This document shows positions 1 to 44,318 of a stretch of DNA of 64,000 nucleotides, piece by piece. Below the pieces are notes generated by a model. It was not told the origin of the DNA. It ran no database searches and saw only the letters and a list, made by a program, of their open reading frames with translations. A program made the position numbers and the translations under genes. Origin of the DNA: Amphiscolops sp. MND2022. Lineage: Eukaryota. Numbering within the stretch: the first letter of the stretch is position 1; each line of letters starts with the position of its first letter. The stretch is taken from NCBI GenBank assembly GCA_964187785.1, contig OZ076409.1:16370001-16434000 (forward strand), read 5' to 3'.

Positions 1-1
1 A

Positions 2-3000
2 GAATTACTTGACAAGAACCAATGTTCCCTAACAATTCGAGACAAAAAATCGGATTCAATAATTATAAATACTTATGTGAATCCAAAACAGTACAATTTT
101 CAGCCTCTCAAAGATACTATTGAAACACTAGAACTAACATGTGATCAAACTATTTATATGGGAGGGGATTTCAATGCCATCGATCCTTCAGATATCAATG
201 AAGAAAACAAAACGTTCAATATGACTGTAAAATCAAATGATATTCGACTATTGCGATCCAAAAAACTAATACATTTGAACTCAAGTCTCCTTCTGATAGA
301 TCTTGCGCAACTCTTACAGAATCGCCAACCAACGCATTTTGAAACACGGTCTGGAAAACAAAGCCGCATCGATTATATTTTTAGTAATAACCAAAATCTC
401 ACCATCGAAAAAAAACAGGATCGAAACATTGCCCTTTGCTTTTTCCGACCACAAATGCCTCCACCTTTTTCGAAATAGCAACTATCAGTATTCTCAAAAA
501 CTTTGGAAGCTCGATAACATTGTATTTAACTATCCGGAGAAAGTGAAGGAAATACTAGAAACATCTAAAGTCGCATCCGAAAAATTTGGGAACATTGTGT
601 CTTGTCATGATATCTTTAAAGCGAAATTAAGAGATCAACTAAAATACCTTAGTGCTACAAGCAGGAAGATGCTAGTGAAACAAAAAGAAAAAATTCAGAT
701 GGATATTGAAAAACTTGAAGAAAATGGTTCTAAGGGAAATTGTTCTGACCAACAGATCAAACAGAACTTAGAGCACCTGACATGCCTCAAAAATAATCTT
801 CAATTGATCAAAAATGAAGAATCTGAAAATTCATTTCAACAAATCAAAAAATTCTTCAGGGAAGCCAATGATGGAAACACAAAAAATATCAAATGCTTAG
901 CAAAAGCCTCAAGCTTAGCTAAGGATATCAAAAAGATTGAAAAACAAGATGGATCATTCACAGAAGATCCTGACGAAATTTTAAATGAATTCAAATCTTT
1001 TTATGAGAAACTTAGCCAACCAAAATGGAAACCAACAGAAACATCCTCGAAATCTCAGGATAAATTCATTGAAAAGTTTTTTAAACAAAAAAGGAAAAGC
1101 ATTGAAAACATTGAAAAATTGTTCAAAGAAACGTTGGAGGACCCCGACAACGAAATCACAGTATATGAAGTTGAAAAAGCTATCTCTAAACTGAACTCAA
1201 ACAGTGCTCCTGGATCGGATGGACTTACAAGTCAATTATACCAAAACCACAAAAACTTTTTTGCCCCGTATCTTTCAAATCTATTTAATAAAATCAATGA
1301 AAATGGAGAAGTTCCGGACTCATTTAAACATGCAATCATCAAAGTAATTCCTAAGAAGAATAATTCACTGAAGGTATCCGAATTTCGGCCAATTAGTCTC
1401 ATTAATACGGATCAAAAAATTCTTTCTCATGTTCTAGCAGAAAGACTTAAACCTATTTTATCAATATTAATTGGTAATCATCAAAACGCTCATTTACCAA
1501 ATAGAAATATACACATTGCCATACAAAAAATTCAGCATTACGCCCATGAAACTACTCGTAGTCAATCACTTATCGCTATTGACTTCAGTAAAGCTTGCGA
1601 CTGTGTAGAGCGTAGCTTTTTACAAAAACTGATTGAAAAAAGTCCAATCGATAAATTTACTCAAGAAATGATTTTACTTACGTACAAGGATACTTATGCT
1701 TTCATTGGAATGAAAAATGGAATTTCCACAAAATTCAAAATAGATAGAGGGGTGAGACAAGGCTGTCCTCTCTCAGCATTGATTTTCAATCTTTGCCTCG
1801 AACCTCTTCTACAAAGAATTCAAAAATCAAAATACATAAAATCAAAACAACAAACAAAATGTATCGCCTACGCAGATGATATAACGATCAGCCTCTACAA
1901 CAAATCTCTTCGGAAGCTATTGATAATATTGGATCATTTTCACGAAATAGCAGGCTTAGAAGTTAATTTAGCCAAAACTGAAATCCTTTCGAAAGCGGAC
2001 AAATTCTTTGTATCGGAAAAACTAACAAGAGTTACCACAACAAAAATTCTTGGAGTTTACATTTCGCTGAATAAAACTCTCAAAAAAGAAACCAAGAACG
2101 CAATAACGAATGCTTTTAACTCAGCAGAAAAATTCATATTAAAAAATAGTTCGTTCCGCGCGAGAGCTAGAAATATTGAGACTTTTATCTACTTGAAATT
2201 AATTCATCATCTGAGACACGAAAATTTGTATAAAAAGTTTCTTCGAAAAGTTCAATCGAAAATAATAGATGTTTTCTGGCTGTACAAAAAACACAATGTT
2301 AAAAAAGAAATTCTTGAGCTACCAATTGAAGAGGGCGGAGTAAACCTCAAGAACTTCTCAAAATACTACCTAACTGCCAAGATTATGAACTTGAAGTTTC
2401 TAGCGGTTAACCCAAAGGAGAGAAAATACATACAAGAATTAAAGAAATCAAAATTTTTTTCAGAATTAGAAAAACACTTCGAAAAGGAACACATTGAAAT
2501 CCTGGAACTGAAACCAGAAGAATTTACAATCCAACATCATTTCACCACGCTTAATATAACAAAAGAGACAACTTCGAAAGAAATTTACACTTTTTTGAAC
2601 AACTCCTCAATAAACGTCCCACCGTCTCTAAAAACTGAAGTCACAGCAACAAAACAAAATATAGCATCCGAAATTTTAAACTCAGTTACAAAGAACATCT
2701 GGAAAAACAAAAAACTCACTTCGTTTGATAAAAACTATCTTTACTGCTTCCTAATGAACTCGTATCTAGATAAACAAGACAAGTGGCTCAAAAATCTTGT
2801 TCTCCAACCACTATGTTTCGCATGTGAAGCAGAATTTGAAACATGGGACCATTTAATGTTTTCGTGTAAAAAATTGAAAACGTTAACAATGAAGTTAAAC
2901 GTTTTTTCATGGAAGGAAATATGGCTTGATCGAAGTTGTCTCTCTCAAAAACTCCTTGTAGCAATAATGCTCTCGTCGTGGACGGAATCAATTGGAGACT

Positions 3001-3068
3001 ACTTAAAATATTTTTTAGAACGAATGAAAGTAATACTAATGCCAGTTGCAAATCTATCTGATAATTGA
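2..3068 (+). CDS. ORF2 (AP endonuclease + reverse transcriptase + zinc knuckle), 5'-incomplete, with a +1 frameshift at A8 408-415
   Basis: Frame 2 is open from base 2 with APE motifs INTYVNP, GGDFN, SRIDYIF. Frame 3 continues with SDH, then RT motifs SAPGSDG, FRPISLIN, DFSKACD, GVRQGCPLS, YADD (1869-1880) and CxxC-x8-H-x4-C (2814-2867). Stop at 3068. Confidence 0.9.
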
Positions 3069-3096: not shown

Positions 3097-3159
3097 TTTC
3101 ATATTGATCTTTTGTAAAAAAGGGATTGATATTATTCATGATTAATTGAATTTTTGAAA

Positions 3160-3270
3160 GCCTAATTGTTGTGATAAACTTATTAAATAGGTAAGTATTC
3201 CAACCCTATTGATAAGTTTTATTTGAAAGCAGACTGCGAAAGTGGTCTGCTGCCCAATTTTTGAACAAGG
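3160..3270 (+). ncRNA. Spliced-leader (SL) RNA gene, copy 1 (normal upstream region replaced by retroelement-side sequence); both ends are inferred
   Basis: Leader 3160-3190 ending AG|GTAAGT. Stem AAACTTATTAAATAGG/CCTATTGATAAGTTT spans the donor. Hairpin AGCAGACTGC-GAAA-GTGGTCTGCT at 3228-3251. Sm site AATTTTTGA at 3256-3264. Confidence 0.88.
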
Positions 3271-3358
3271 AACAAGCTAGTCTGCACTAACTTAAAAGTT
3301 ACGCGTATTTTGACCGAGAAAATTTTCGTATCATTGTACGTAATTTTGTTGTTAAGCA

Positions 3359-3364
3359 TATAAA
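3359..3364 (+). promoter_or_regulatory. TATA-like box upstream of 5S (repeated in each unit)
   Basis: TATAAA at -27..-22 relative to 5S +1. Confidence 0.6.
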
Positions 3365-3385
3365 GCTATTGATTCTACAATGATC

Positions 3386-3504
3386 GGCTACGACCATACT
3401 ATGTTGAATGCACCGGTTCTCGTCCGATCACCGAAGTTAAACAACATAGGGCCTGGTTAGTACTTGGATGGGAGACCGCTTGGGAACACCAGGTGTTGTA
3501 GCCT
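3386..3504 (+). rRNA. 5S rRNA: 5S rRNA copy 1 (C15T variant)
   Basis: GGCTACGACCATAC...CCGATC...GGTTAGTACTTGGATGGGAGACC...GTAGCC; helix I closure, box A and box C, T6 terminator. Confidence 0.98.
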
Positions 3505-3509
3505 TTTTT
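3504..3509 (+). terminator. Pol III oligo-T terminator of 5S (repeated in each unit)
   Basis: T6 directly after GTAGCC. Confidence 0.9.
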
Positions 3510-3514
3510 GTCAG

Positions 3515-3776
3515 AAATGTGGTTTAACTTCGGTGACAGTTTTGCAAAAGGGGTCAAATTGAAAAGATAGCAAAAAACGGACAACGCCATTAGAAAGAGC
3601 GTCCAAAAAAACCCCCATGCTGAAATTTTCGCCGCCATCACTTGAATTTTCATTGAGTTATGTCATTTTTACTATTTTCACAAAATGTGGTTTAACTTCG
3701 GTGACAGTTTTGCAAAAGGGGTCAAAATGAACAGATAGCAAAAAACGGACAACGGCACTGGAAAGAGGGCCCAAAA
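3515..3776 (+). repeat. Two ~94-bp imperfect direct subrepeats in the spacer, 168 bp apart (present in all units but one)
   Basis: AAATGTGGTTTAACTTCGGTGACAGTTTTGCAAAAGGGGTCAAA... at 3515-3608 and 3683-3776. Confidence 0.95.
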
Positions 3777-4063
3777 TTACCCCTAAAACGTGTTTTTCAC
3801 ACTCCTGAGTCGACTTTTGATAATACATGGAATTTCATTTTTAAGCTTACTAATTTATGCTTTTCAGCATACATTTTCGTAATAGAGTCAAAATTTTGCT
3901 TTCTCACAATTTTTCTGGAATATTTTTGTTTCATCAGATGTCAATAACTTGAAACGTCGTCTTTTCATGAGAATTTCTCCTCAAAACAAGTTGTTGGCTG
4001 GTAATGGTAAGTCCGTACCGCAGATAGGAGTCTCGCGCTCCAAAAATTGACTCTTTGCTTTTA

Positions 4064-4174
4064 GCCTAATTGTTGTGATAAACTTATTAAATAGGTAAGT
4101 ATTCCAACCCTATTGATAAGTTTTATTTGAAAGCAGACTGCGAAAGTGGTCTGCTGCCCAATTTTTGAACAAGG
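4064..4174 (+). ncRNA. SL RNA gene, copy 2; representative of the intact copies, which start 226 bp upstream of each 5S gene in standard units
   Basis: Same leader, donor, hairpin and Sm architecture as copy 1. Confidence 0.88.
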
Positions 4175-4289
4175 AACAAGCTAGTCTGCACTAACTTAAA
4201 AGTTACGCGTATTTTGACCGAGAAAATTTTCGTATCATTGTACGTAATTTTGTTGTTAAGCATATAAAGCTATTGATTCTACAATGATC

Positions 4290-4408
4290 GGCTACGACCA
4301 TACCATGTTGAATGCACCGGTTCTCGTCCGATCACCGAAGTTAAACAACATAGGGCCTGGTTAGTACTTGGATGGGAGACCGCTTGGGAACACCAGGTGT
4401 TGTAGCCT
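4290..4408 (+). rRNA. 5S rRNA: 5S rRNA
   Basis: Array copy. Confidence 0.98.
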
Positions 4409-5192
4409 TTTTTGTCAGAAATGTGGTTTAACTTCGGTGACAGTTTTGCAAAAGGGGTCAAATTGAAAAGATAGCAAAAAACGGACAACGCCATTAGAAA
4501 GAGCGTCCAAAAAACCCCCATGCTGAAATTTTCGCCGCCATCACTTGAATTTTCATTGAGTTATGTCATTTTTACTATTTTCACAAAATGTGGTTTAACT
4601 TCGGTGACAGTTTTGCAAAAGGGGTCAAAATGAACAGATAGCAAAAAACGGACAACGGCACTGGAAAGAGGGCCCAAAATTACCCCTAAAACGTGTTTTT
4701 CACACTCCTGAGTCGACTTTTGATAATACATGGAATTTCATTTTTAAGCTTACTAATTTATGCTTTTCAGCATACATTTTCGTAATAGAGTCAAAATTTT
4801 GCTTTCTCACAATTTTTCTGGAATATTTTTGTTTCATCAGATGTCAATAACTTGAAACGTCGTCTTTTCATGAGAATTTCTCCTCAAAACAAGTTGTTGG
4901 CTGGTAATGGTAAGTCCGTACCGCAGATAGGAGTCTCGCGCTCCAAAAATTGACTCTTTGCTTTTAGCCTAATTGTTGTGATAAACTTATTAAATAGGTA
5001 AGTATTCCAACCCTATTGATAAGTTTTATTTGAAAGCAGACTGCGAAAGTGGTCTGCTGCCCAATTTTTGAACAAGGAACAAGCTAGTCTGCACTAACTT
5101 AAAAGTTACGCGTATTTTGACCGAGAAAATTTTCGTATCATTGTACGTAATTTTGTTGTTAAGCATATAAAGCTATTGATTCTACAATGATC

Positions 5193-5311
5193 GGCTACGA
5201 CCATACCATGTTGAATGCACCGGTTCTCGTCCGATCACCGAAGTTAAACAACATAGGGCCTGGTTAGTACTTGGATGGGAGACCGCTTGGGAACACCAGG
5301 TGTTGTAGCCT
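5193..5311 (+). rRNA. 5S rRNA: 5S rRNA
   Basis: Array copy. Confidence 0.98.
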
Positions 5312-6096
5312 TTTTTGTCAGAAATGTGGTTTAACTTCGGTGACAGTTTTGCAAAAGGGGTCAAATTGAAAAGATAGCAAAAAACGGACAACGCCATTAG
5401 AAAGAGCGTCCAAAAAAACCCCCATGCTGAAATTTTCGCCGCCATCACTTGAATTTTCATTGAGTTATGTCATTTTTACTATTTTCACAAAATGTGGTTT
5501 AACTTCGGTGACAGTTTTGCAAAAGGGGTCAAAATGAACAGATAGCAAAAAACGGACAACGGCACTGGAAAGAGGGCCCAAAATTACCCCTAAAACGTGT
5601 TTTTCACACTCCTGAGTCGACTTTTGATAATACATGGAATTTCATTTTTAAGCTTACTAATTTATGCTTTTCAGCATACATTTTCGTAATAGAGTCAAAA
5701 TTTTGCTTTCTCACAATTTTTCTGGAATATTTTTGTTTCATCAGATGTCAATAACTTGAAACGTCGTCTTTTCATGAGAATTTCTCCTCAAAACAAGTTG
5801 TTGGCTGGTAATGGTAAGTCAGTACCGCAGATAGGAGTCTCGCGCTCCAAAAATTGACTCTTTGCTTTTAGCCTAATTGTTGTGATAAACTTATTAAATA
5901 GGTAAGTATTCCAACCCTATTGATAAGTTTTATTTGAAAGCAGACTGCGAAAGTGGTCTGCTGCCCAATTTTTGAACAAGGAAAAAGCTAGTCTGCACTA
6001 ACTTAAAAGTTACGCGTATTTTGACCGAGAAAATTTTCGTATCATTGTACGTAATTTTGTTGTTAAGCATATAAAGCTATTGATTCTACAATGATC

Positions 6097-6215
6097 GGCT
6101 ACGACCATACCATGTTGAATGCACCGGTTCTCGTCCGATCACCGAAGTTAAACAACATAGGGCCTGGTTAGTACTTGGATGGGAGACCGCTTGGGAACAC
6201 CAGGTGTTGTAGCCT
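6097..6215 (+). rRNA. 5S rRNA: 5S rRNA
   Basis: Array copy. Confidence 0.98.
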
Positions 6216-7000
6216 TTTTTGTCAGAAATGTGGTTTAACTTCGGTGACAGTTTTGCAAAAGGGGTCAAATTGAAAAGATAGCAGAAAACGGACAACGCCA
6301 TTAGAAAGAGCGTCCAAAAAAACCCCCATGCTGAAATTTTCGCCGCCATCACTTGAATTTTCATTGAGTTATGTCATTTTTACTATTTTCACAAAATGTG
6401 GTTTAACTTCGGTGACAGTTTTGCAAAAGGGGTCAAAATGAACAGATAGCAAAAAACGGACAACGGCACTGGAAAGAGGGCCCAAAATTACCCCTAAAAC
6501 GTGTTTTTCACACTCCTGAGTCGACTTTTGATAATACATGGAATTTCATTTTTAAGCTTACTAATTTATGCTTTTCAGCATACATTTTCGTAATAGAGTC
6601 AAAATTTTGCTTTCTCACAATTTTTCTGGAATATTTTTGTTTCATCAGATGTCAATAACTTGAAACGTCGTCTTTTCATGAGAATTTCTCCTCAAAACAA
6701 GTTGTTGGCTGGTAATGGTAAGTCCGTACCGCAGATAGGAGTCTCGCGCTCCAAAAATTGACTCTTTGCTTTTAGCCTAATTGTTGTGATAAACTTATTA
6801 AATAGGTAAGTATTCCAACCCTATTGATAAGTTTTATTTGAAAGCAGACTGCGAAAGTGGTCTGCTGCCCAATTTTTGAACAAGGAAAAAGCTAGTCTGC
6901 ACTAACTTAAAAGTTACGCGTATTTTGACCGAGAAAATTTTCGTATCATTGTACGTAATTTTGTTGTTAAGCATATAAAGCTATTGATTCTACAATGATC

Positions 7001-7119
7001 GGCTACGACCATACCATGTTGAATGCACCGGTTCTCGTCCGATCACCGAAGTTAAACAACATAGGGCCTGGTTAGTACTTGGATGGGAGACCGCTTGGGA
7101 ACACCAGGTGTTGTAGCCT
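7001..7119 (+). rRNA. 5S rRNA: 5S rRNA
   Basis: Array copy. Confidence 0.98.
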
Positions 7120-7678
7120 TTTTTGTCAGAAATGTGGTTTAACTTCGGTGACAGTTTTGCAAAAGGGGTCAAATTGAAAAGATAGCAAAAAACGGACAAC
7201 GCCATTAGAAAGAGCGTCCAAAAAAACCCCCATGCTGAAATTTTCGCCGCCATCACTTGAATTTTCATTGAGTTATGTCATTTTTACTATTTTCACAAAA
7301 TGTGGTTTAACTTCGGTGACAGTTTTGCAAAAGGGGTCAAAATGAACAGATAGCAAAAAACGGACAACGGCACTGGAAAGAGGGCCCAAAATTACCCCTA
7401 AAACGTGTTTTTCACACTCCTGAGTCGACTTTTGATAATACATGGAATTTCATTTTTAAGCTTACTAATTTATGCTTTTCAGCATACATTTTCGTAATAG
7501 AGTCAAAATTTTGCTTTCTCACAATTTTTCTGGAATATTTTTGTTTCATCAGATGTCAATAACTTGAAACGTCGTCTTTTCATGAGAATTTCTCCTCAAA
7601 ACAAGTTGTTGGCTGGTAATGGTAAGTCCGTACCGCAGATAGGAGTCTCGCGCTCCAAAAATTGACTCTTTGCTTTTA

Positions 7679-7920
7679 GCCTAATTGTTGTGATAAACTT
7701 ATTAAATAGGTAAGTATTCCAACCTTGGAATATTTCTTGCCTGTTTGAGGTGTGAATCACACTTACTTATCAATAGGGCCCAAAAGCCAGTAACCAAAAA
7801 CCAGTAACCAATAACCAACCTGTACTTACTGTTTGAAAGGTAAGTATTCCAACCCTATTGATAAGTTTTATTTGAAAGCAGACTGCGAAAGTGGTCTGCT
7901 GCCCAATTTTTGAACAAGGA
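7679..7920 (+). ncRNA. SL RNA gene with a 130-bp expansion (113-bp insert + 17-bp duplication)
   Basis: AGGTAAGTATTCCAACC at 7708-7724 and 7838-7854 flanks the insert at 7725-7837. Confidence 0.8.
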
Positions 7921-8034
7921 AAAAGCTAGTCTGCACTAACTTAAAAGTTACGCGTATTTTGACCGAGAAAATTTTCGTATCATTGTACGTAATTTTGTTG
8001 TTAAGCATATAAAGCTATTGATTCTACAATGATC

Positions 8035-8153
8035 GGCTACGACCATACCATGTTGAATGCACCGGTTCTCGTCCGATCACCGAAGTTAAACAACATAGGG
8101 CCTGGTTAGTACTTGGATGGGAGACCGCTTGGGAACACCAGGTGTTGTAGCCT
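8035..8153 (+). rRNA. 5S rRNA: 5S rRNA
   Basis: Array copy. Confidence 0.98.
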
Positions 8154-8938
8154 TTTTTGTCAGAAATGTGGTTTAACTTCGGTGACAGTTTTGCAAAAGG
8201 GGTCAAATTGAAAAGATAGCAAAAAACGGACAACGCCATTAGAAAGAGCGTCCAAAAAAACCCCCATGCTGAAATTTTCGCCGCCATCACTTGAATTTTC
8301 ATTGAGTTATGTCATTTTTACTATTTTCACAAAATGTGGTTTAACTTCGGTGACAGTTTTGCAAAAGGGGTCAAAATGAACAGATAGCAAAAAACGGACA
8401 ACGGCACTGGAAAGAGGGCCCAAAATTACCCCTAAAACGTGTTTTTCACACTCCTGAGTCGACTTTTGATAATACATGGAATTTCATTTTTAAGCTTACT
8501 AATTTATGCTTTTCAGCATACATTTTCGTAATAAAGTCAAAATTTTGCTTTCTCACAATTTTTCTGGAATATTTTTGTTTCATCAGATGTCAATAACTTG
8601 AAACGTCGTCTTTTCATGAGAATTTCTCCTCAAAACAAGTTGTTGGCTGGTAATGGTAAGTCCGTACCGCAGATAGGAGTCTCGCGCTCCAAAAATTGAC
8701 TCTTTGCTTTTAGCCTAATTGTTGTGATAAACTTATTAAATAGGTAAGTATTCCAACCCTATTGATAAGTTTTATTTGAAAGCAGACTGCGAAAGTGGTC
8801 TGCTGCCCAATTTTTGAACAAGGAAAAAGCTAGTCTGCACTAACTTAAAAGTTACGCGTATTTTGACCGAGAAAATTTTCGTATCATTGTACGTAATTTT
8901 GTTGTTAAGCATATAAAGCTATTGATTCTACAATGATC

Positions 8939-9057
8939 GGCTACGACCATACCATGTTGAATGCACCGGTTCTCGTCCGATCACCGAAGTTAAACAACAT
9001 AGGGCCTGGTTAGTACTTGGATGGGAGACCGCTTGGGAACACCAGGTGTTGTAGCCT
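8939..9057 (+). rRNA. 5S rRNA: 5S rRNA
   Basis: Array copy. Confidence 0.98.
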
Positions 9058-9842
9058 TTTTTGTCAGAAATGTGGTTTAACTTCGGTGACAGTTTTGCAA
9101 AAGGGGTCAAATTGAAAAGATAGCAAAAAACGGACAACGCCATTAGAAAGAGCGTCCAAAAAAACCCCCATGCTGAAATTTTCGCCGCCATCACTTGAAT
9201 TTTCATTGAGTTATGTCATTTTTACTATTTTCACAAAATGTGGTTTAACTTCGGTGACAGTTTTGCAAAAGGGGTCAAAATGAACAGATAGCAAAAAACG
9301 GACAACGGCATTGGAAAGAGGGCCCAAAATTACCCCTAAAACGTGTTTTTCACACTCCTGAGTCGACTTTTGATAATACATGGAATTTCATTTTTAAGCT
9401 TACTAATTTATGCTTTTCAGCATACATTTTCGTAATAGAGTCAAAATTTTGCTTTCTCACAATTTTTCTGGAATATTTTTGTTTCATCAGATGTCAATAA
9501 CTTGAAACGTCGTCTTTTCATGAGAATTTCTCCTCAAAACAAGTTGTTGGCTGGTAATGGTAAGTCCGTACCGCAGATAGGAGTCTCGCGCTCCAAAAAT
9601 TGACTCTTTGCTTTTAGCCTAATTGTTGTGATAAACTTATTAAATAGGTAAGTATTCCAACCCTATTGATAAGTTTTATTTGAAAGCAGACTGCGAAAGT
9701 GGTCTGCTGCCCAATTTTTGAACAAGGAAAAAGCTAGTCTGCACTAACTTAAAAGTTACGCGTATTTTGACCGAGAAAATTTTCGTATCATTGTACGTAA
9801 TTTTGTTGTTAAGCATATAAAGCTATTGATTCTACAATGATC

Positions 9843-9961
9843 GGCTACGACCATACCATGTTGAATGCACCGGTTCTCGTCCGATCACCGAAGTTAAACA
9901 ACATAGGGCCTGGTTAGTACTTGGATGGGAGACCGCTTGGGAACACCAGGTGTTGTAGCCT
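9843..9961 (+). rRNA. 5S rRNA: 5S rRNA
   Basis: Array copy. Confidence 0.98.
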
Positions 9962-10746
9962 TTTTTGTCAGAAATGTGGTTTAACTTCGGTGACAGTTTT
10001 GCAAAAGGGGTCAAATTGAAAAGATAGCAAAAAACGGACAACGCCATTAGAAAGAGCGTCCAAAAAAACCCCCATGCTGAAATTTTCGCCGCCATCACTT
10101 GAATTTTCATTGAGTTATGTCATTTTTACTATTTTCACAAAATGTGGTTTAACTTCGGTGACAGTTTTGCAAAAGGGGTCAAAATGAACAGATAGCAAAA
10201 AACGGACAACGGCACTGGAAAGAGGGCCCAAAATTACCCCTAAAACGTGTTTTTCACACTCCTGAGTCGACTTTTGATAATACATGGAATTTCATTTTTA
10301 AGCTTACTAATTTATGCTTTTCAGCATACATTTTCGTAATAGAGTCAAAATTTTGCTTTCTCACAATTTTTCTGGAATATTTGTGTTTCATCAGATGTCA
10401 ATAACTTGAAACGTCGTCTTTTCATGAGAATTTCTCCTCAAAACAAGTTGTTGGCTGGTAATGGTAAGTCCGTACCGCAGATAGGAGTCTCGCGCTCCAA
10501 AAATTGACTCTTTGCTTTTAGCCTAATTGTTGTGATAAACTTATTAAATAGGTAAGTATTCCAACCCTATTGATAAGTTTTATTTGAAAGCAGACTGCGA
10601 AAGTGGTCTGCTGCCCAATTTTTGAACAAGGAAAAAGCTAGTCTGCACTAACTTAAAAGTTACGCGTATTTTGACCGAGAAAATTTTCGTATCATTGTAC
10701 GTAATTTTGTTGTTAAGCATATAAAGCTATTGATTCTACAATGATC

Positions 10747-10865
10747 GGCTACGACCATACCATGTTGAATGCACCGGTTCTCGTCCGATCACCGAAGTTA
10801 AACAACATAGGGCCTGGTTAGTACTTGGATGGGAGACCGCTTGGGAACACCAGGTGTTGTAGCCT
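10747..10865 (+). rRNA. 5S rRNA: 5S rRNA
   Basis: Array copy. Confidence 0.98.
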
Positions 10866-11482
10866 TTTTTGTCAGAAATGTGGTTTAACTTCGGTGACAG
10901 TTTTGCAAAAGGGGTCAAAATGAACAGATAGCAAAAAACGGACAACGGCACTGGAAAGAGGGCCCAAAATTACCCCTAAAACGTGTTTTTCACACTCCTG
11001 AGTCGACTTTTGATAATACATGGAATTTCATTTTTAAGCTTACTAATTTATGCTTTTCAGCATACATTTTCGTAATAAAGTCAAAATTTTGCTTTCTCAC
11101 AATTTTTCTGGAATATTTTTGTTTCATCAGATGTCAATAACTTGAAACGTCGTCTTTTCATGAGAATTTCTCCTCAAAACAAGTTGTTGGCTGGTAATGG
11201 TAAGTCCGTACCGCAGATAGGAGTCTCGCGCTCCAAAAATTGACTCTTTGCTTTTAGCCTAATTGTTGTGATAAACTTATTAAATAGGTAAGTATTCCAA
11301 CCCTATTGATAAGTTTTATTTGAAAGCAGACTGCGAAAGTGGTCTGCTGCCCAATTTTTGAACAAGGAAAAAGCTAGTCTGCACTAACTTAAAAGTTACG
11401 CGTATTTTGACCGAGAAAATTTTCGTATCATTGTACGTAATTTTGTTGTTAAGCATATAAAGCTATTGATTCTACAATGATC

Positions 11483-11601
11483 GGCTACGACCATACCATG
11501 TTGAATGCACCGGTTCTCGTCCGATCACCGAAGTTAAACAACATAGGGCCTGGTTAGTACTTGGATGGGAGACCGCTTGGGAACACCAGGTGTTGTAGCC
11601 T
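11483..11601 (+). rRNA. 5S rRNA: 5S rRNA
   Basis: Array copy. Confidence 0.98.
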
Positions 11602-12386
11602 TTTTTGTCAGAAATGTGGTTTAACTTCGGTGACAGTTTTGCAAAAGGGGTCAAATTGAAAAGATAGCAAAAAACGGACAACGCCATTAGAAAGAGCGTC
11701 CAAAAAAACCCCCATGCTGAAATTTTCGCCGCCATCACTTGAATTTTCATTGAGTTATGTCATTTTTACTATTTTCACAAAATGTGGTTTAACTTCGGTG
11801 ACAGTTTTGCAAAAGGGGTCAAAATGAACAGATAGCAAAAAACGGACAACGGCACTGGAAAGAGGGCCCAAAATTACCCCTAAAACGTGTTTTTCACACT
11901 CCTGAGTCGACTTTTGATAATACATGGAATTTCATTTTTAAGCTTACTAATTTATGCTTTTCAGCATACATTTTCGTAATAGAGTCAAAATTTTGCTTTC
12001 TCACAATTTTTCTGGAATATTTGTGTTTCATCAGATGTCAATAACTTGAAACGTCGTCTTTTCATGAGAATTTCTCCTCAAAACAAGTTGTTGGCTGGTA
12101 ATGGTAAGTCCGTACCGCAGATAGGAGTCTCGCGCTCCAAAAATTGACTCTTTGCTTTTAGCCTAATTGTTGTGATAAACTTATTAAATAGGTAAGTATT
12201 CCAACCCTATTGATAAGTTTTATTTGAAAGCAGACTGCGAAAGTGGTCTGCTGCCCAATTTTTGAACAAGGAAAAAGCTAGTCTGCACTAACTTAAAAGT
12301 TACGCGTATTTTGACCGAGAAAATTTTCGTATCATTGTACGTAATTTTGTTGTTAAGCATATAAAGCTATTGATTCTACAATGATC

Positions 12387-12505
12387 GGCTACGACCATAC
12401 CATGTTGAATGCACCGGTTCTCGTCCGATCACCGAAGTTAAACAACATAGGGCCTGGTTAGTACTTGGATGGGAGACCGCTTGGGAACACCAGGTGTTGT
12501 AGCCT
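12387..12505 (+). rRNA. 5S rRNA: 5S rRNA
   Basis: Array copy. Confidence 0.98.
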
Positions 12506-13290
12506 TTTTTGTCAGAAATGTGGTTTAACTTCGGTGACAGTTTTGCAAAAGGGGTCAAATTGAAAAGATAGCAAAAAACGGACAACGCCATTAGAAAGAG
12601 CGTCCAAAAAAACCCCCATGCTGAAATTTTCGCCGCCATCACTTGAATTTTCATTGAGTTATGTCATTTTTACTATTTTCACAAAATGTGGTTTAACTTC
12701 GGTGACAGTTTTGCAAAAGGGGTCAAAATGAACAGATAGCAAAAAACGGACAACGGCATTGGAAAGAGGGCCCAAAATTACCCCTAAAACGTGTTTTTCA
12801 CACTCCTGAGTCGACTTTTGATAATACATGGAATTTCATTTTTAAGCTTACTAATTTATGCTTTTCAGCATACATTTTCGTAATAGAGTCAAAATTTTGC
12901 TTTCTCACAATTTTTCTGGAATATTTTTGTTTCATCAGATGTCAATAACTTGAAACGTCGTCTTTTCATGAGAATTTCTCCTCAAAACAAGTTGTTGGCT
13001 GGTAATGGTAAGTCCGTACCGCAGATAGGAGTCTCGCGCTCCAAAAATTGACTCTTTGCTTTTAGCCTAATTGTTGTGATAAACTTATTAAATAGGTAAG
13101 TATTCCAACCCTATTGATAAGTTTTATTTGAAAGCAGACTGCGAAAGTGGTCTGCTGCCCAATTTTTGAACAAGGAAAAAGCTAGTCTGCACTAACTTAA
13201 AAGTTACGCGTATTTTGACCGAGAAAATTTTCGTATCATTGTACGTAATTTTGTTGTTAAGCATATAAAGCTATTGATTCTACAATGATC

Positions 13291-13409
13291 GGCTACGACC
13301 ATACCATGTTGAATGCACCGGTTCTCGTCCGATCACCGAAGTTAAACAACATAGGGCCTGGTTAGTACTTGGATGGGAGACCGCTTGGGAACACCAGGTG
13401 TTGTAGCCT
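13291..13409 (+). rRNA. 5S rRNA: 5S rRNA
   Basis: Array copy. Confidence 0.98.
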
Positions 13410-14194
13410 TTTTTGTCAGAAATGTGGTTTAACTTCGGTGACAGTTTTGCAAAAGGGGTCAAATTGAAAAGATAGCAAAAAACGGACAACGCCATTAGAA
13501 AGAGCGTCCAAAAAAACCCCCATGCTGAAATTTTCGCCGCCATCACTTGAATTTTCATTGAGTTATGTCATTTTTACTATTTTCACAAAATGTGGTTTAA
13601 CTTCGGTGACAGTTTTGCAAAAGGGGTCAAAATGAACAGATAGCAAAAAACGGACAACGGCACTGGAAAGAGGGCCCAAAATTACCCCTAAAACGTGTTT
13701 TTCACACTCCTGAGTCGACTTTTGATAATACATGGAATTTCATTTTTAAGCTTACTAATTTATGCTTTTCAGCATACATTTTCGTAATAAAGTCAAAATT
13801 TTGCTTTCTCACAATTTTTCTGGAATATTTTTGTTTCATCAGATGTCAATAACTTGAAACGTCGTCTTTTCATGAGAATTTCTCCTCAAAACAAGTTGTT
13901 GGCTGGTAATGGTAAGTCCGTACCGCAGATAGGAGTCTCGCGCTCCAAAAATTGACTCTTTGCTTTTAGCCTAATTGTTGTGATAAACTTATTAAATAGG
14001 TAAGTATTCCAACCCTATTGATAAGTTTTATTTGAAAGCAGACTGCGAAAGTGGTCTGCTGCCCAATTTTTGAACAAGGAAAAAGCTAGTCTGCACTAAC
14101 TTAAAAGTTACGCGTATTTTGACCGAGAAAATTTTCGTATCATTGTACGTAATTTTGTTGTTAAGCATATAAAGCTATTGATTCTACAATGATC

Positions 14195-14313
14195 GGCTAC
14201 GACCATACCATGTTGAATGCACCGGTTCTCGTCCGATCACCGAAGTTAAACAACATAGGGCCTGGTTAGTACTTGGATGGGAGACCGCTTGGGAACACCA
14301 GGTGTTGTAGCCT
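14195..14313 (+). rRNA. 5S rRNA: 5S rRNA
   Basis: Array copy. Confidence 0.98.
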
Positions 14314-15098
14314 TTTTTGTCAGAAATGTGGTTTAACTTCGGTGACAGTTTTGCAAAAGGGGTCAAATTGAAAAGATAGCAAAAAACGGACAACGCCATT
14401 AGAAAGAGCGTCCAAAAAAACCCCCATGCTGAAATTTTCGCCGCCATCACTTGAATTTTCATTGAGTTATGTCATTTTTACTATTTTCACAAAATGTGGT
14501 TTAACTTCGGTGACAGTTTTGCAAAAGGGGTCAAAATGAACAGATAGCAAAAAACGGACAACGGCACTGGAAAGAGGGCCCAAAATTACCCCTAAAACGT
14601 GTTTTTCACACTCCTGAGTCGACTTTTGATAATACATGGAATTTCATTTTTAAGCTTACTAATTTATGCTTTTCAGCATACATTTTCGTAATAGAGTCAA
14701 AATTTTGCTTTCTCACAATTTTTCTGGAATATTTGTGTTTCATCAGATGTCAATAACTTGAAACGTCGTCTTTTCATGAGAATTTCTCCTCAAAACAAGT
14801 TGTTGGCTGGTAATGGTAAGTCCGTACCGCAGATAGGAGTCTCGCGCTCCAAAAATTGACTCTTTGCTTTTAGCCTAATTGTTGTGATAAACTTATTAAA
14901 TAGGTAAGTATTCCAACCCTATTGATAAGTTTTATTTGAAAGCAGACTGCGAAAGTGGTCTGCTGCCCAATTTTTGAACAAGGAAAAAGCTAGTCTGCAC
15001 TAACTTAAAAGTTACGCGTATTTTGACCGAGAAAATTTTCGTATCATTGTACGTAATTTTGTTGTTAAGCATATAAAGCTATTGATTCTACAATGATC

Positions 15099-15217
15099 GG
15101 CTACGACCATACCATGTTGAATGCACCGGTTCTCGTCCGATCACCGAAGTTAAACAACATAGGGCCTGGTTAGTACTTGGATGGGAGACCGCTTGGGAAC
15201 ACCAGGTGTTGTAGCCT
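15099..15217 (+). rRNA. 5S rRNA: 5S rRNA
   Basis: Array copy. Confidence 0.98.
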
Positions 15218-16002
15218 TTTTTGTCAGAAATGTGGTTTAACTTCGGTGACAGTTTTGCAAAAGGGGTCAAATTGAAAAGATAGCAAAAAACGGACAACGC
15301 CATTAGAAAGAGCGTCCAAAAAAACCCCCATGCTGAAATTTTCGCCGCCATCACTTGAATTTTCATTGAGTTATGTCATTTTTACTATTTTCACAAAATG
15401 TGGTTTAACTTCGGTGACAGTTTTGCAAAAGGGGTCAAAATGAACAGATAGCAAAAAACGGACAACGGCATTGGAAAGAGGGCCCAAAATTACCCCTAAA
15501 ACGTGTTTTTCACACTCCTGAGTCGACTTTTGATAATACATGGAATTTCATTTTTAAGCTTACTAATTTATGCTTTTCAGCATACATTTTCGTAATAGAG
15601 TCAAAATTTTGCTTTCTCACAATTTTTCTGGAATATTTTTGTTTCATCAGATGTCAATAACTTGAAACGTCGTCTTTTCATGAGAATTTCTCCTCAAAAC
15701 AAGTTGTTGGCTGGTAATGGTAAGTCCGTACCGCAGATAGGAGTCTCGCGCTCCAAAAATTGACTCTTTGCTTTTAGCCTAATTGTTGTGATAAACTTAT
15801 TAAATAGGTAAGTATTCCAACCCTATTGATAAGTTTTATTTGAAAGCAGACTGCGAAAGTGGTCTGCTGCCCAATTTTTGAACAAGGAAAAAGCTAGTCT
15901 GCACTAACTTAAAAGTTACGCGTATTTTGACCGAGAAAATTTTCGTATCATTGTACGTAATTTTGTTGTTAAGCATATAAAGCTATTGATTCTACAATGA
16001 TC

Positions 16003-16121
16003 GGCTACGACCATACCATGTTGAATGCACCGGTTCTCGTCCGATCACCGAAGTTAAACAACATAGGGCCTGGTTAGTACTTGGATGGGAGACCGCTTGG
16101 GAACACCAGGTGTTGTAGCCT
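16003..16121 (+). rRNA. 5S rRNA: 5S rRNA
   Basis: Array copy. Confidence 0.98.
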
Positions 16122-16906
16122 TTTTTGTCAGAAATGTGGTTTAACTTCGGTGACAGTTTTGCAAAAGGGGTCAAATTGAAAAGATAGCAAAAAACGGACA
16201 ACGCCATTAGAAAGAGCGTCCAAAAAAACCCCCATGCTGAAATTTTCGCCGCCATCACTTGAATTTTCATTGAGTTATGTCATTTTTACTATTTTCACAA
16301 AATGTGGTTTAACTTCGGTGACAGTTTTGCAAAAGGGGTCAAAATGAACAGATAGCAAAAAACGGACAACGGCACTGGAAAGAGGGCCCAAAATTACCCC
16401 TAAAACGTGTTTTTCACACTCCTGAGTCGACTTTTGATAATACATGGAATTTCATTTTTAAGCTTACTAATTTATGCTTTTCAGCATACATTTTCGTAAT
16501 AGAGTCAAAATTTTGCTTTCTCACAATTTTTCTGGAATATTTTTGTTTCATCAGATGTCAATAACTTGAAACGTCGTCTTTTCATGAGAATTTCTCCTCA
16601 AAACAAGTTGTTGGCTGGTAATGGTAAGTCAGTACCGCAGATAGGAGTCTCGCGCTCCAAAAATTGACTCTTTGCTTTTAGCCTAATTGTTGTGATAAAC
16701 TTATTAAATAGGTAAGTATTCCAACCCTATTGATAAGTTTTATTTGAAAGCAGACTGCGAAAGTGGTCTGCTGCCCAATTTTTGAACAAGGAAAAAGCTA
16801 GTCTGCACTAACTTAAAAGTTACGCGTATTTTGACCGAGAAAATTTTCGTATCATTGTACGTAATTTTGTTGTTAAGCATATAAAGCTATTGATTCTACA
16901 ATGATC

Positions 16907-17025
16907 GGCTACGACCATACCATGTTGAATGCACCGGTTCTCGTCCGATCACCGAAGTTAAACAACATAGGGCCTGGTTAGTACTTGGATGGGAGACCGC
17001 TTGGGAACACCAGGTGTTGTAGCCT
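16907..17025 (+). rRNA. 5S rRNA: 5S rRNA
   Basis: Array copy. Confidence 0.98.
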
Positions 17026-17810
17026 TTTTTGTCAGAAATGTGGTTTAACTTCGGTGACAGTTTTGCAAAAGGGGTCAAATTGAAAAGATAGCAAAAAACG
17101 GACAACGCCATTAGAAAGAGCGTCCAAAAAAACCCCCATGCTGAAATTTTCGCCGCCATCACTTGAATTTTCATTGAGTTATGTCATTTTTACTATTTTC
17201 ACAAAATGTGGTTTAACTTCGGTGACAGTTTTGCAAAAGGGGTCAAAATGAACAGATAGCAAAAAACGGACAACGGCACTGGAAAGAGGGCCCAAAATTA
17301 CCCCTAAAACGTGTTTTTCACACTCCTGAGTCGACTTTTGATAATACATGGAATTTCATTTTTAAGCTTACTAATTTATGCTTTTCAGCATACATTTTCG
17401 TAATAGAGTCAAAATTTTGCTTTCTCACAATTTTTCTGGAATATTTGTGTTTCATCAGATGTCAATAACTTGAAACGTCGTCTTTTCATGAGAATTTCTC
17501 CTCAAAACAAGTTGTTGGCTGGTAATGGTAAGTCCGTACCGCAGATAGGAGTCTCGCGCTCCAAAAATTGACTCTTTGCTTTTAGCCTAATTGTTGTGAT
17601 AAACTTATTAAATAGGTAAGTATTCCAACCCTATTGATAAGTTTTATTTGAAAGCAGACTGCGAAAGTGGTCTGCTGCCCAATTTTTGAACAAGGAAAAA
17701 GCTAGTCTGCACTAACTTAAAAGTTACGCGTATTTTGACCGAGAAAATTTTCGTATCATTGTACGTAATTTTGTTGTTAAGCATATAAAGCTATTGATTC
17801 TACAATGATC

Positions 17811-17929
17811 GGCTACGACCATACCATGTTGAATGCACCGGTTCTCGTCCGATCACCGAAGTTAAACAACATAGGGCCTGGTTAGTACTTGGATGGGAGA
17901 CCGCTTGGGAACACCAGGTGTTGTAGCCT
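17811..17929 (+). rRNA. 5S rRNA: 5S rRNA
   Basis: Array copy. Confidence 0.98.
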
Positions 17930-18714
17930 TTTTTGTCAGAAATGTGGTTTAACTTCGGTGACAGTTTTGCAAAAGGGGTCAAATTGAAAAGATAGCAAAA
18001 AACGGACAACGCCATTAGAAAGAGCGTCCAAAAAAACCCCCATGCTGAAATTTTCGCCGCCATCACTTGAATTTTCATTGAGTTATGTCATTTTTACTAT
18101 TTTCACAAAATGTGGTTTAACTTCGGTGACAGTTTTGCAAAAGGGGTCAAAATGAACAGATAGCAAAAAACGGACAACGGCATTGGAAAGAGGGCCCAAA
18201 ATTACCCCTAAAACGTGTTTTTCACACTCCTGAGTCGACTTTTGATAATACATGGAATTTCATTTTTAAGCTTACTAATTTATGCTTTTCAGCATACATT
18301 TTCGTAATAGAGTCAAAATTTTGCTTTCTCACAATTTTTCTGGAATATTTTTGTTTCATCAGATGTCAATAACTTGAAACGTCGTCTTTTCATGAGAATT
18401 TCTCCTCAAAACAAGTTGTTGGCTGGTAATGGTAAGTCCGTACCGCAGATAGGAGTCTCGCGCTCCAAAAATTGACTCTTTGCTTTTAGCCTAATTGTTG
18501 TGATAAACTTATTAAATAGGTAAGTATTCCAACCCTATTGATAAGTTTTATTTGAAAGCAGACTGCGAAAGTGGTCTGCTGCCCAATTTTTGAACAAGGA
18601 AAAAGCTAGTCTGCACTAACTTAAAAGTTACGCGTATTTTGACCGAGAAAATTTTCGTATCATTGTACGTAATTTTGTTGTTAAGCATATAAAGCTATTG
18701 ATTCTACAATGATC

Positions 18715-18833
18715 GGCTACGACCATACCATGTTGAATGCACCGGTTCTCGTCCGATCACCGAAGTTAAACAACATAGGGCCTGGTTAGTACTTGGATGG
18801 GAGACCGCTTGGGAACACCAGGTGTTGTAGCCT
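18715..18833 (+). rRNA. 5S rRNA: 5S rRNA
   Basis: Array copy. Confidence 0.98.
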
Positions 18834-19618
18834 TTTTTGTCAGAAATGTGGTTTAACTTCGGTGACAGTTTTGCAAAAGGGGTCAAATTGAAAAGATAGC
18901 AAAAAACGGACAACGCCATTAGAAAGAGCGTCCAAAAAAACCCCCATGCTGAAATTTTCGCCGCCATCACTTGAATTTTCATTGAGTTATGTCATTTTTA
19001 CTATTTTCACAAAATGTGGTTTAACTTCGGTGACAGTTTTGCAAAAGGGGTCAAAATGAACAGATAGCAAAAAACGGACAACGGCATTGGAAAGAGGGCC
19101 CAAAATTACCCCTAAAACGTGTTTTTCACACTCCTGAGTCGACTTTTGATAATACATGGAATTTCATTTTTAAGCTTACTAATTTATGCTTTTCAGCATA
19201 CATTTTCGTAATAGAGTCAAAATTTTGCTTTCTCACAATTTTTCTGGAATATTTTTGTTTCATCAGATGTCAATAACTTGAAACGTCGTCTTTTCATGAG
19301 AATTTCTCCTCAAAACAAGTTGTTGGCTGGTAATGGTAAGTCCGTACCGCAGATAGGAGTCTCGCGCTCCAAAAATTGACTCTTTGCTTTTAGCCTAATT
19401 GTTGTGATAAACTTATTAAATAGGTAAGTATTCCAACCCTATTGATAAGTTTTATTTGAAAGCAGACTGCGAAAGTGGTCTGCTGCCCAATTTTTGAACA
19501 AGGAAAAAGCTAGTCTGCACTAACTTAAAAGTTACGCGTATTTTGACCGAGAAAATTTTCGTATCATTGTACGTAATTTTGTTGTTAAGCATATAAAGCT
19601 ATTGATTCTACAATGATC

Positions 19619-19737
19619 GGCTACGACCATACCATGTTGAATGCACCGGTTCTCGTCCGATCACCGAAGTTAAACAACATAGGGCCTGGTTAGTACTTGG
19701 ATGGGAGACCGCTTGGGAACACCAGGTGTTGTAGCCT
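19619..19737 (+). rRNA. 5S rRNA: 5S rRNA
   Basis: Array copy. Confidence 0.98.
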
Positions 19738-20522
19738 TTTTTGTCAGAAATGTGGTTTAACTTCGGTGACAGTTTTGCAAAAGGGGTCAAATTGAAAAGA
19801 TAGCAAAAAACGGACAACGCCATTAGAAAGAGCGTCCAAAAAAACCCCCATGCTGAAATTTTCGCCGCCATCACTTGAATTTTCATTGAGTTATGTCATT
19901 TTTACTATTTTCACAAAATGTGGTTTAACTTCGGTGACAGTTTTGCAAAAGGGGTCAAAATGAACAGATAGCAAAAAACGGACAACGGCATTGGAAAGAG
20001 GGCCCAAAATTACCCCTAAAACGTGTTTTTCACACTCCTGAGTCGACTTTTGATAATACATGGAATTTCATTTTTAAGCTTACTAATTTATGCTTTTCAG
20101 CATACATTTTCGTAATAGAGTCAAAATTTTGCTTTCTCACAATTTTTCTGGAATATTTTTGTTTCATCAGATGTCAATAACTTGAAACGTCGTCTTTTCA
20201 TGAGAATTTCTCCTCAAAACAAGTTGTTGGCTGGTAATGGTAAGTCCGTACCGCAGATAGGAGTCTCGCGCTCCAAAAATTGACTCTTTGCTTTTAGCCT
20301 AATTGTTGTGATAAACTTATTAAATAGGTAAGTATTCCAACCCTATTGATAAGTTTTATTTGAAAGCAGACTGCGAAAGTGGTCTGCTGCCCAATTTTTG
20401 AACAAGGAAAAAGCTAGTCTGCACTAACTTAAAAGTTACGCGTATTTTGACCGAGAAAATTTTCGTATCATTGTACGTAATTTTGTTGTTAAGCATATAA
20501 AGCTATTGATTCTACAATGATC

Positions 20523-20641
20523 GGCTACGACCATACCATGTTGAATGCACCGGTTCTCGTCCGATCACCGAAGTTAAACAACATAGGGCCTGGTTAGTAC
20601 TTGGATGGGAGACCGCTTGGGAACACCAGGTGTTGTAGCCT
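20523..20641 (+). rRNA. 5S rRNA: 5S rRNA
   Basis: Array copy. Confidence 0.98.
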
Positions 20642-21426
20642 TTTTTGTCAGAAATGTGGTTTAACTTCGGTGACAGTTTTGCAAAAGGGGTCAAATTGAA
20701 AAGATAGCAAAAAACGGACAACGCCATTAGAAAGAGCGTCCAAAAAAACCCCCATGCTGAAATTTTCGCCGCCATCACTTGAATTTTCATTGAGTTATGT
20801 CATTTTTACTATTTTCACAAAATGTGGTTTAACTTCGGTGACAGTTTTGCAAAAGGGGTCAAAATGAACAGATAGCAAAAAACGGACAACGGCATTGGAA
20901 AGAGGGCCCAAAATTACCCCTAAAACGTGTTTTTCACACTCCTGAGTCGACTTTTGATAATACATGGAATTTCATTTTTAAGCTTACTAATTTATGCTTT
21001 TCAGCATACATTTTCGTAATAGAGTCAAAATTTTGCTTTCTCACAATTTTTCTGGAATATTTTTGTTTCATCAGATGTCAATAACTTGAAACGTCGTCTT
21101 TTCATGAGAATTTCTCCTCAAAACAAGTTGTTGGCTGGTAATGGTAAGTCCGTACCGCAGATAGGAGTCTCGCGCTCCAAAAATTGACTCTTTGCTTTTA
21201 GCCTAATTGTTGTGATAAACTTATTAAATAGGTAAGTATTCCAACCCTATTGATAAGTTTTATTTGAAAGCAGACTGCGAAAGTGGTCTGCTGCCCAATT
21301 TTTGAACAAGGAAAAAGCTAGTCTGCACTAACTTAAAAGTTACGCGTATTTTGACCGAGAAAATTTTCGTATCATTGTACGTAATTTTGTTGTTAAGCAT
21401 ATAAAGCTATTGATTCTACAATGATC

Positions 21427-21545
21427 GGCTACGACCATACCATGTTGAATGCACCGGTTCTCGTCCGATCACCGAAGTTAAACAACATAGGGCCTGGTTA
21501 GTACTTGGATGGGAGACCGCTTGGGAACACCAGGTGTTGTAGCCT
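21427..21545 (+). rRNA. 5S rRNA: 5S rRNA
   Basis: Array copy. Confidence 0.98.
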
Positions 21546-22330
21546 TTTTTGTCAGAAATGTGGTTTAACTTCGGTGACAGTTTTGCAAAAGGGGTCAAAT
21601 TGAAAAGATAGCAAAAAACGGACAACGCCATTAGAAAGAGCGTCCAAAAAAACCCCCATGCTGAAATTTTCGCCGCCATCACTTGAATTTTCATTGAGTT
21701 ATGTCATTTTTACTATTTTCACAAAATGTGGTTTAACTTCGGTGACAGTTTTGCAAAAGGGGTCAAAATGAACAGATAGCAAAAAACGGACAACGGCATT
21801 GGAAAGAGGGCCCAAAATTACCCCTAAAACGTGTTTTTCACACTCCTGAGTCGACTTTTGATAATACATGGAATTTCATTTTTAAGCTTACTAATTTATG
21901 CTTTTCAGCATACATTTTCGTAATAGAGTCAAAATTTTGCTTTCTCACAATTTTTCTGGAATATTTTTGTTTCATCAGATGTCAATAACTTGAAACGTCG
22001 TCTTTTCATGAGAATTTCTCCTCAAAACAAGTTGTTGGCTGGTAATGGTAAGTCCGTACCGCAGATAGGAGTCTCGCGCTCCAAAAATTGACTCTTTGCT
22101 TTTAGCCTAATTGTTGTGATAAACTTATTAAATAGGTAAGTATTCCAACCCTATTGATAAGTTTTATTTGAAAGCAGACTGCGAAAGTGGTCTGCTGCCC
22201 AATTTTTGAACAAGGAAAAAGCTAGTCTGCACTAACTTAAAAGTTACGCGTATTTTGACCGAGAAAATTTTCGTATCATTGTACGTAATTTTGTTGTTAA
22301 GCATATAAAGCTATTGATTCTACAATGATC

Positions 22331-44258: not shown

Positions 44259-44318
44259 TCGTATCATTGTACGTAATTTTGTTGTTAAGCATATAAAGCT
44301 ATTGATTTTACAATGATC

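What the first reader, a model, noticed from the sequence alone, without database searches (positions are those of the whole stretch)
3160..3509. SL RNA gene hidden in the 5S spacer: a linked SL-5S tandem array implying trans-splicing in this organism
Each unit has a 31-nt leader ending AG|GTAAGT, a stem pairing the leader 3' half with the intron across the donor, a GAAA-tetraloop hairpin and an Sm site AATTTTTGA. It lies co-oriented just upstream of 5S. SL-5S linkage is established in nematodes, Oikopleura, Hydra, euglenozoans and dinoflagellates, but this leader matches none of those as I recall them. From memory it resembles a leader reported from acoel worms; this is unverified. Standard annotation would probably see only 5S here.
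Basis: partly seen in the sequence, partly recalled or inferred. Interest (0 to 1): 0.75.

Follow-up and report, generated by a model that had tools for sequence, protein, structure and literature searches.

The report
Retrotransposon targeting acoel spliced-leader genes
The repeat is a real array of spliced-leader and 5S genes whose leader is already published for an acoel worm; the new part is a family of L1-like jumping genes that, in three divergent cases, ends at exactly the first letter of the spliced-leader gene.

Summary
The window holds 67 co-oriented SL-5S units of 904 bp. The 31-nt leader equals the first 31 letters of the published Symsagittifera roscoffensis leader, so trans-splicing in acoels is known. 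In metagenome contigs the leader heads 50 transcript-like contigs, 44 with Pfam hits to varied genes. SL-5S linkage recurs in a diverged locus (L036); no paper searched reports it for acoels.

Corrections: the leader probably starts one base earlier (A3159, 32 nt), the conserved block is 100 nt, and the proposed Sm site lies mostly outside it.

So do two relatives, L018 and L028 (43% identical to it, 71% to each other, synonymous sites saturated). Best reading: an SL-gene-targeting APE-type family, convergent with the restriction-like-endonuclease elements CRE and NeSL. The 5' junction, the share of copies at SL genes and the clade (L1 or Tx1) are untested. The scan noted SL-associated retroelements before in other organisms, not on this DNA or family.

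The parts
1..3068 (+). ORF2 of an L1-group non-LTR retrotransposon (APE endonuclease, RT, C-terminal zinc finger). 5' end lies outside the window; this copy is frameshifted near 410.
   Evidence: Exo_endo_phos E 2e-4 and Exo_endo_phos_2 E 2e-5, both under Pfam's cut-off; RVT_1 E 1e-31; zf-RVT E 0.003, under cut-off; human L1 ORF2p E 2.6e-52, best R2 2.3e-19; 98.6% to the open 1108-aa P0001
3069..3158 (+). 3' UTR of the element, ending in a very short A run that abuts SL +1 and replaces the normal upstream spacer
   Evidence: 65 of 66 leader copies have the normal upstream 8-mer, this one does not
3159..3190 (+). Spliced-leader exon, probably 32 nt starting at A3159
   Evidence: (published leader)
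3191..3258 (+). SL intron part: 5' donor, 3' arm of stem 1, GAAA hairpin (3228-3251); end of the conserved 100-nt block
3215..3226 (+). Alternative Sm-site candidate: U-rich, invariant, directly 5' of the terminal hairpin, but half paired in the predicted stem 1
   Evidence: mean unpaired probability 0.33-0.37
3256..3264 (+).
   Evidence: unpaired 0.71
3386..3509 (+). 5S rRNA gene (3386-3504) and T6 terminator
4031..4062 (+). Sequence upstream of an unoccupied SL gene that is kept in L036; candidate proximal promoter element
   Evidence: 110 nt upstream align better than 1000 of 1000 shuffles; function inferred
3159..64000 (+). Tandem SL-5S array, 67 units of mostly 904 bp
7708..7854 (+). 113-nt insert (7725-7837) between two copies of a 17-nt stretch spanning the donor; also at 23959-24071 and 24993-25105

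Best explanation
The array is the SL RNA locus of an acoel worm, each unit pairing an SL gene with a 5S gene. Inferred from known SL biology: RNA polymerase II makes a capped ~100-nt RNA from +1 (A3159); it folds into two stem-loops, takes an Sm ring, and donates its 32-nt exon at the AG/GT junction to acceptor sites of many pre-mRNAs; polymerase III makes 5S separately. Shown: the leader is joined, without its intron, to many different coding sequences. The element at 1-3158 belongs to an L1-group retrotransposon family that inserts site-specifically at the SL transcription start. Shown: three divergent members end at the same nucleotide, in the same orientation, each followed by leader, donor and intron. 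Inferred: its APE endonuclease nicks the bottom strand at or next to +1, the free end primes reverse transcription on the short A tail, the downstream SL gene stays whole but loses its upstream promoter, and the element's 5' end probably gains that promoter. The high-copy, homogenised array is a safe haven, as rDNA is for R1/R2.
For: SL: leader equals the published one. Of 64 pattern matches, 50 lie within 35 nt of a contig end, 11 are internal, 3 are SL genes. Of the 50, 48 carry an ORF of 150 aa or more, 44 start within ~100 nt of the leader, 44 have Pfam hits, to varied housekeeping families. The 100-nt block is identical in 62 of 66 copies and in L036, whose spacers have diverged and which also has 5S 208 nt downstream (227 here). 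Targeting: tblastn of the window ORF hits L018 and L028 over ~880 aa; 3 of the 4 genomic SL-gene contexts seen (window, L018, L028; not L036) have this family ending at +1. Identity 42.6%, 42.8% and 70.8%; pN 0.18-0.38 against pS 0.73-0.81, so these are old, selected lineages and not copies of one insertion. Their common ancestor subtends 12 of 75 RT sequences, support 0.976. Three pairs of family members from different subclades share an identical longest-contig length (P0001/P0005, P0009/P0025, P0019/P0022), as co-residence in one array would give.
Against: L018 and L028 were found through the leader, so they cannot show what share of the family sits at SL genes; no flank of the other ~33 close protein clusters was seen. 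They come from one assembly and end 177 and 69 nt after the leader, without 5S. No 5' junction or target-site duplication was seen. The contig of P0002 (58% identical, JGI, 3535 bp) is not among the 64 matches; it has little room for flank, so this is ambiguous. Shared contig lengths are indirect. 49 of the 50 transcript-like contigs come from four assemblies with neighbouring names and may be one source; that they are RNA is inferred. No named acoel protein came up for the leader-bearing RPL3. No reads were laid on the window.
Confidence: 0.82

Rival explanations
1. The family does not seek SL genes; it carries an SL gene as part of its own 3' end (read-through or 3' transduction) and inserts elsewhere.
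For: L018 and L028 share SL variants not in the window or L036, L018 has a GC donor, and neither shows 5S. The window element's 3' UTR weakly resembles the SL-5S spacer of L036 (3 of 1000 shuffles, 1 of 15 comparisons).
Against: In the window the SL gene after the element is a normal array member: unit 1 differs from unit 3 at 2 of 904 positions and is followed by 66 more units in register. Both contigs end before 5S would begin.
Confidence: 0.08
2. One ancient insertion beside an SL gene was inherited, or generic preference for AT-rich DNA or assembly joins at the shared leader produced the three junctions.
For: Few cases; the region is AT-rich; the leader is a repeated node for short-read assemblers.
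Against: Saturated synonymous sites with open frames, unalignable 3' UTRs between the window and the other two, and a near-perfect array unit next to the window copy argue for recent, separate insertions. All three junctions fall on the same base and the same family. The empty site has a T-run on the top strand before +1, not the A-run downstream that L1's usual preference (recalled) would need.
Confidence: 0.06
3. The SL-like copies in this array are silent or pseudogenes, and the working SL RNA comes from other loci.
For: No RNA from this organism was examined; the Sm site is unresolved; 4 of 66 copies are altered.
Against: The 100-nt block is identical to that of L036 while flanking spacers have diverged, and upstream sequence is partly kept.
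Confidence: 0.04

Closest known systems
S. roscoffensis SL RNA (PMC9911081: passages and supplement text; bioRxiv 10.1101/2022.08.27.505549: passages)
   Same: Leader identical over 31 nt; multiple SL genes; ~100-bp conserved region.
   Different: The published 32nd letter (A) is not in the gene and varies on mRNAs (A 39, G 8, T 3 of 50); a 5' A is probably missing from it. 'rRNA' occurs 0 times in both main texts and in the supplement text. Their SL structure figure is an image and was not seen.
SL-5S linked arrays of other eukaryotes (PMC10946416, passage citing Drouin and de Sa 1995)
   Same: 5S genes linked to the trans-spliced leader genes.
   Different: Not found in print for acoels in searches; a further independent lineage.
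CRE/SLACS/CZAR and NeSL (PMC3636483 and PMC4640811, passages)
   Same: Non-LTR retrotransposons inserted in spliced-leader genes.
   Different: They encode a restriction-like endonuclease after the RT (R2 group). This family has an N-terminal APE and is far closer to L1 ORF2p than to R2. It joins at +1, leaving the exon whole; that CRE and NeSL cut inside the exon is recalled, not read.
Target-specific Tx1-clade elements, e.g. Keno in U2 genes (PMC4494074 passages; PMC4640811 passages and section 6)
   Same: APE-type L1-group elements with precise 3' junctions in multicopy small-RNA genes.
   Different: Targets named in the passages read are U2, U5, 5S, satellites, microsatellites and transposons; 'leader' occurs 0 times in PMC4494074. 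Tx1 membership was not tested.
Two-stem SL RNAs of Schistosoma and rotifers (PMC2770079, passage)
   Same: Two stem-loops; tandem gene repeat.
   Different: There the Sm site is described as unpaired; here the conserved U-rich candidate is half paired in the prediction.

Membership tests
Spliced-leader RNA gene | Same short exon joined to 5' ends of unrelated mRNAs | tested here: met
   50 of 64 matches at contig ends, 44 of 50 with Pfam hits; from other samples, not the window's organism
Spliced-leader RNA gene | 5' splice donor right after the exon in the gene, absent on mRNAs | tested here: met
Spliced-leader RNA gene | Stem-loop holding the donor, plus further stem-loop | tested here: met
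   (z -3.34); prediction only, too little variation for covariation
Spliced-leader RNA gene | Single-stranded U-rich Sm site | tested here: inconclusive
   One candidate is conserved but half paired, the other unpaired but not conserved
Spliced-leader RNA gene | Capped small RNA in an Sm particle | not testable with these tools
   Needs RNA and immunoprecipitation
Rfam SL families | Covariance-model match | tested here: not met
   No SL family at gathering score or up to E 10 on 3000-3380; lineage-specific models
5S rRNA | Full-length RF00001 match with T-run terminator | tested here: met
   67 matches, 114.8-117.5 bits
L1 group non-LTR retrotransposon | N-terminal APE, RT, C-terminal zinc finger; RT closest to L1 | tested here: met
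   APE and zinc-finger hits are real but under Pfam's cut-offs
L1 group non-LTR retrotransposon | ORF1 and target-site duplication | not testable with these tools
   5' end outside the window; no genome held; loci not extendable
Tx1 clade | RT phylogeny with Tx1 and L1 references | not tested
   The tree holds no named Tx1 or L1 reference
Target-specific family (criterion in PMC4494074) | Target seen in more than 20% of copy flanks | not testable with these tools
   3 of 3 flanks seen are SL +1, but two were ascertained through the leader
CRE / NeSL | Restriction-like endonuclease after the RT | tested here: not met
   APE before the RT; ORF ends soon after the zinc finger

The most novel reading that the evidence does not exclude
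Acoels host an old, multi-lineage clade of APE-type L1-group retrotransposons that cut at the transcription start of SL RNA genes, take over the SL promoter and leave the SL gene whole: a third independent origin of SL targeting and the first with an APE endonuclease in the papers searched. Alongside it, unrelated LINEs in such genomes are trans-spliced and re-inserted with the leader at their 5' ends.
Probability: 0.6. Interest if true: 0.7.

Novelty: new variant of a known kind. Interest (0 to 1): 0.55.

Why it matters
The SL RNA itself is known and the 5S link is one more case of a recurring arrangement. The retrotransposon is the gain: it would show that SL genes have been chosen as a target by both endonuclease types, give a natural series (43-71% identical) for finding what sets APE target choice, and mark a long, stable history of one SL start sequence in acoels. 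The corrected leader ends matter for annotating acoel transcript starts.

Tried and rejected
No whole genome is held and the metagenome loci could not be extended. No relative of P0001 in viral contigs: 47 pattern matches, 0 confirmed. Sequencing-run search: 20 rows, none holding half of the words, best shares 0.37 and 0.21; none was laid, so they are no evidence, and read support for the junction and for expression stays open. Rfam at E up to 10 on 3000-3380 gave 3 matches far below their cut-offs. The RPL3 search gave no named acoel; named full-length hits were about 60% identical. Similarity of element 3' UTRs to array spacers: 1 of 15 comparisons reached 3 of 1000 shuffles, found post hoc; not relied on. 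The 113-nt insert matches nothing in the element or the 64 loci except a 14-nt inverted piece of the SL intron. CRE/NeSL membership rejected on endonuclease type. The tree used 75 of 126 sequences: 2 dropped for short RT, and P0071-P0120 except P0092 left out. Paper searches for an acoel SL-5S link and for APE-type SL-targeting elements found none; the library lacks most subscription papers and Repbase.

Full report
Observation. The window is a tandem array from 3159 to the end. Rfam finds 67 5S genes on the + strand. The 31-nt leader at 3160-3190 occurs 66 times exactly; a 67th falls in a 200-N gap. The unit is 904 bp in 59 of 65 spacings. The leader ends AG and is followed by GTAAGT. No Rfam SL family matches.

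Identity of the leader. A full-text search with 20 letters of the leader returned two items, the S. roscoffensis genome paper and its preprint. Passages give a 32-letter leader whose first 31 letters are the window's, say that 30.2% of genes are trans-spliced, and describe multiple SL genes with a conserved ~100-bp region. An earlier paper lists one SL form in Convoluta pulchra (PMC2481426, passages). The host is therefore most likely an acoel; species is not determined. Neither text nor the supplement text mentions rRNA; the structure figure was not visible.

Independent test of trans-splicing. A scan of metagenome contigs with 24 letters of the leader gave 64 loci. 50 have the leader within 35 nt of a contig end, 11 have it internally, 3 have it followed by donor and intron. 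Of the 50, 48 carry an ORF of at least 150 aa and 44 have Pfam hits: ribosomal proteins, ATP synthase, Arf, a proteasome ATPase, cyclin, DnaJ and others. The base after the leader is A in 39, G in 8, T in 3, so the published final A belongs to the mRNAs. 49 of the 50 come from four assemblies that may be one source, and their RNA origin is inferred from their form.

Anatomy of the SL gene. Aligning the window with the three SL-gene loci shows a block of 100 nt, 3159-3258, invariant but for three positions, with divergence on both sides. It is identical in 62 of 66 window copies. A U-rich stretch at 3215-3226 lies inside the block, just before the terminal hairpin, where Sm assembly usually wants a 3' stem-loop (recalled), but it is half paired in the prediction. 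I favour it about 60:30 and leave it open. The start is probably A3159: 8 of 8 internal copies with an intact leader start have A before it (3 of 11 lack an intact start), against a background of 0.29. Five of the eight also have T before the A, as the gene does, so a start 1-3 nt further up is possible. L036 has 5S 208 nt after +1, diverged spacers with shared sub-repeats and a partly kept upstream motif: the SL-5S unit is shared by descent with what is probably another species. Searches found no paper on this link in acoels.

The retrotransposon. Bases 1-3068 encode an APE endonuclease, an RT and a C-terminal zinc finger, closest among solved structures to human L1 ORF2p (E 2.6e-52; best R2 2.3e-19). 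The copy is frameshifted near 410; an open 1108-aa relative at 98.6% stands for 24 member sequences. After a 90-nt UTR the element ends in a short A run directly on SL +1, in place of the spacer found before the other 65 leaders. L018 and L028, two of the three SL-gene loci, have relatives in the same position and orientation, ending on the same base. They are 42.6% and 42.8% identical to the window protein and 70.8% to each other, with pN 0.18-0.38 and pS 0.73-0.81. The three fall in a 12-member RT subclade (0.976) within a 38-member clade (0.996) of unnamed proteins. Three pairs from different subclades share a longest-contig length, which fits co-residence in one array but is indirect.

Mechanism. 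Shown: leader on many mRNAs; SL-5S linkage in two loci; three divergent elements at SL +1. Inferred: Pol II and Pol III transcription, cap, Sm binding; target-primed reverse transcription from a bottom-strand nick at or next to +1; loss of the promoter for the downstream SL copy and its gain by the element. The main weakness is ascertainment: L018 and L028 were found through the leader, so exclusive targeting is not shown, and an element that carries an SL gene at its 3' end cannot be excluded for them. For the window it can, since the SL gene is a near-perfect unit of a 67-unit array. No 5' junction was seen and no reads were laid.

Comparison. SL-inserting elements in the papers read are CRE and NeSL, with a restriction-like endonuclease (PMC3636483 and PMC4640811, passages). 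APE-type targeted elements are in the Tx1 and R1 clades; targets named are U2, U5, 5S, satellites, microsatellites and transposons. Searches found no APE-type element targeting SL genes; Repbase and Kojima and Fujiwara 2004 were not seen. PMC8869645 (passages) lists no SL target for Dada. The element works like CRE/NeSL but is not a member; it is L1-group, clade unsettled. The scan's earlier notes hold SL-headed or SL-associated retroelements in a Euglena-type alga, a sea squirt and dinoflagellates, unchecked, and nothing like this protein or this DNA.

Side result. Seven of the 11 internal loci have APE or RT hits downstream of the leader; the three placed in the tree lie far from this family. 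They look like full-length LINEs copied from trans-spliced RNA.

Verdict. SL RNA: already known. Acoel SL-5S array: new member of a known kind. SL-start-targeted L1-group family: new variant of a known kind, well supported on three junctions and cheap to test. Interest 0.55.

Noticed in passing
window 7725-7837, 23959-24071, 24993-25105: 113-nt insert flanked by a 17-nt duplication across the donor in 3 units; holds a 14-nt inverted copy of the SL intron (0 of 1000 shuffles) and a short tandem repeat. Repair scar with templated pieces, or a small second element; its last six letters equal those before the target A of the retrotransposon end.
   Followed up: partly
L010, L015, L037, L046, L049, L051, L056 (also L016, L023, L032, L053 without Pfam hits): LINE-like elements of other clades that begin with the leader, often followed by a second acceptor-like TTTCAG; L053 has a relic leader in tandem.
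   Followed up: partly
window 3061-3158 against L036 SL-5S spacer: Weak colinear similarity of the element's 3' UTR to the spacer of another array (3 of 1000 shuffles, 1 of 15 tests); could be a captured spacer or chance.
   Followed up: partly
window 10521-11256: Unit of 736 bp with a 168-bp deletion in the spacer, matching the spacing of the two internal sub-repeats.
   Followed up: no
window array, unit positions 216, 414, 432: Three variants each in 20 of 59 units, suggesting two haplotype blocks under concerted evolution.
   Followed up: no
L018:30-201: SL gene after the element has a GC donor and a two-base change that shifts the register of stem 1 without loosening it much.
   Followed up: partly
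L003, L006, L012, L014, L029, L057 5' ends: Transcript-like contigs extend 4-25 nt upstream of the leader with sequence like the genomic upstream motif; read-through RNA, DNA carry-over or graph extension.
   Followed up: no
window 44060-44259: 200-N assembly gap inside the array; true copy number is unknown.
   Followed up: no
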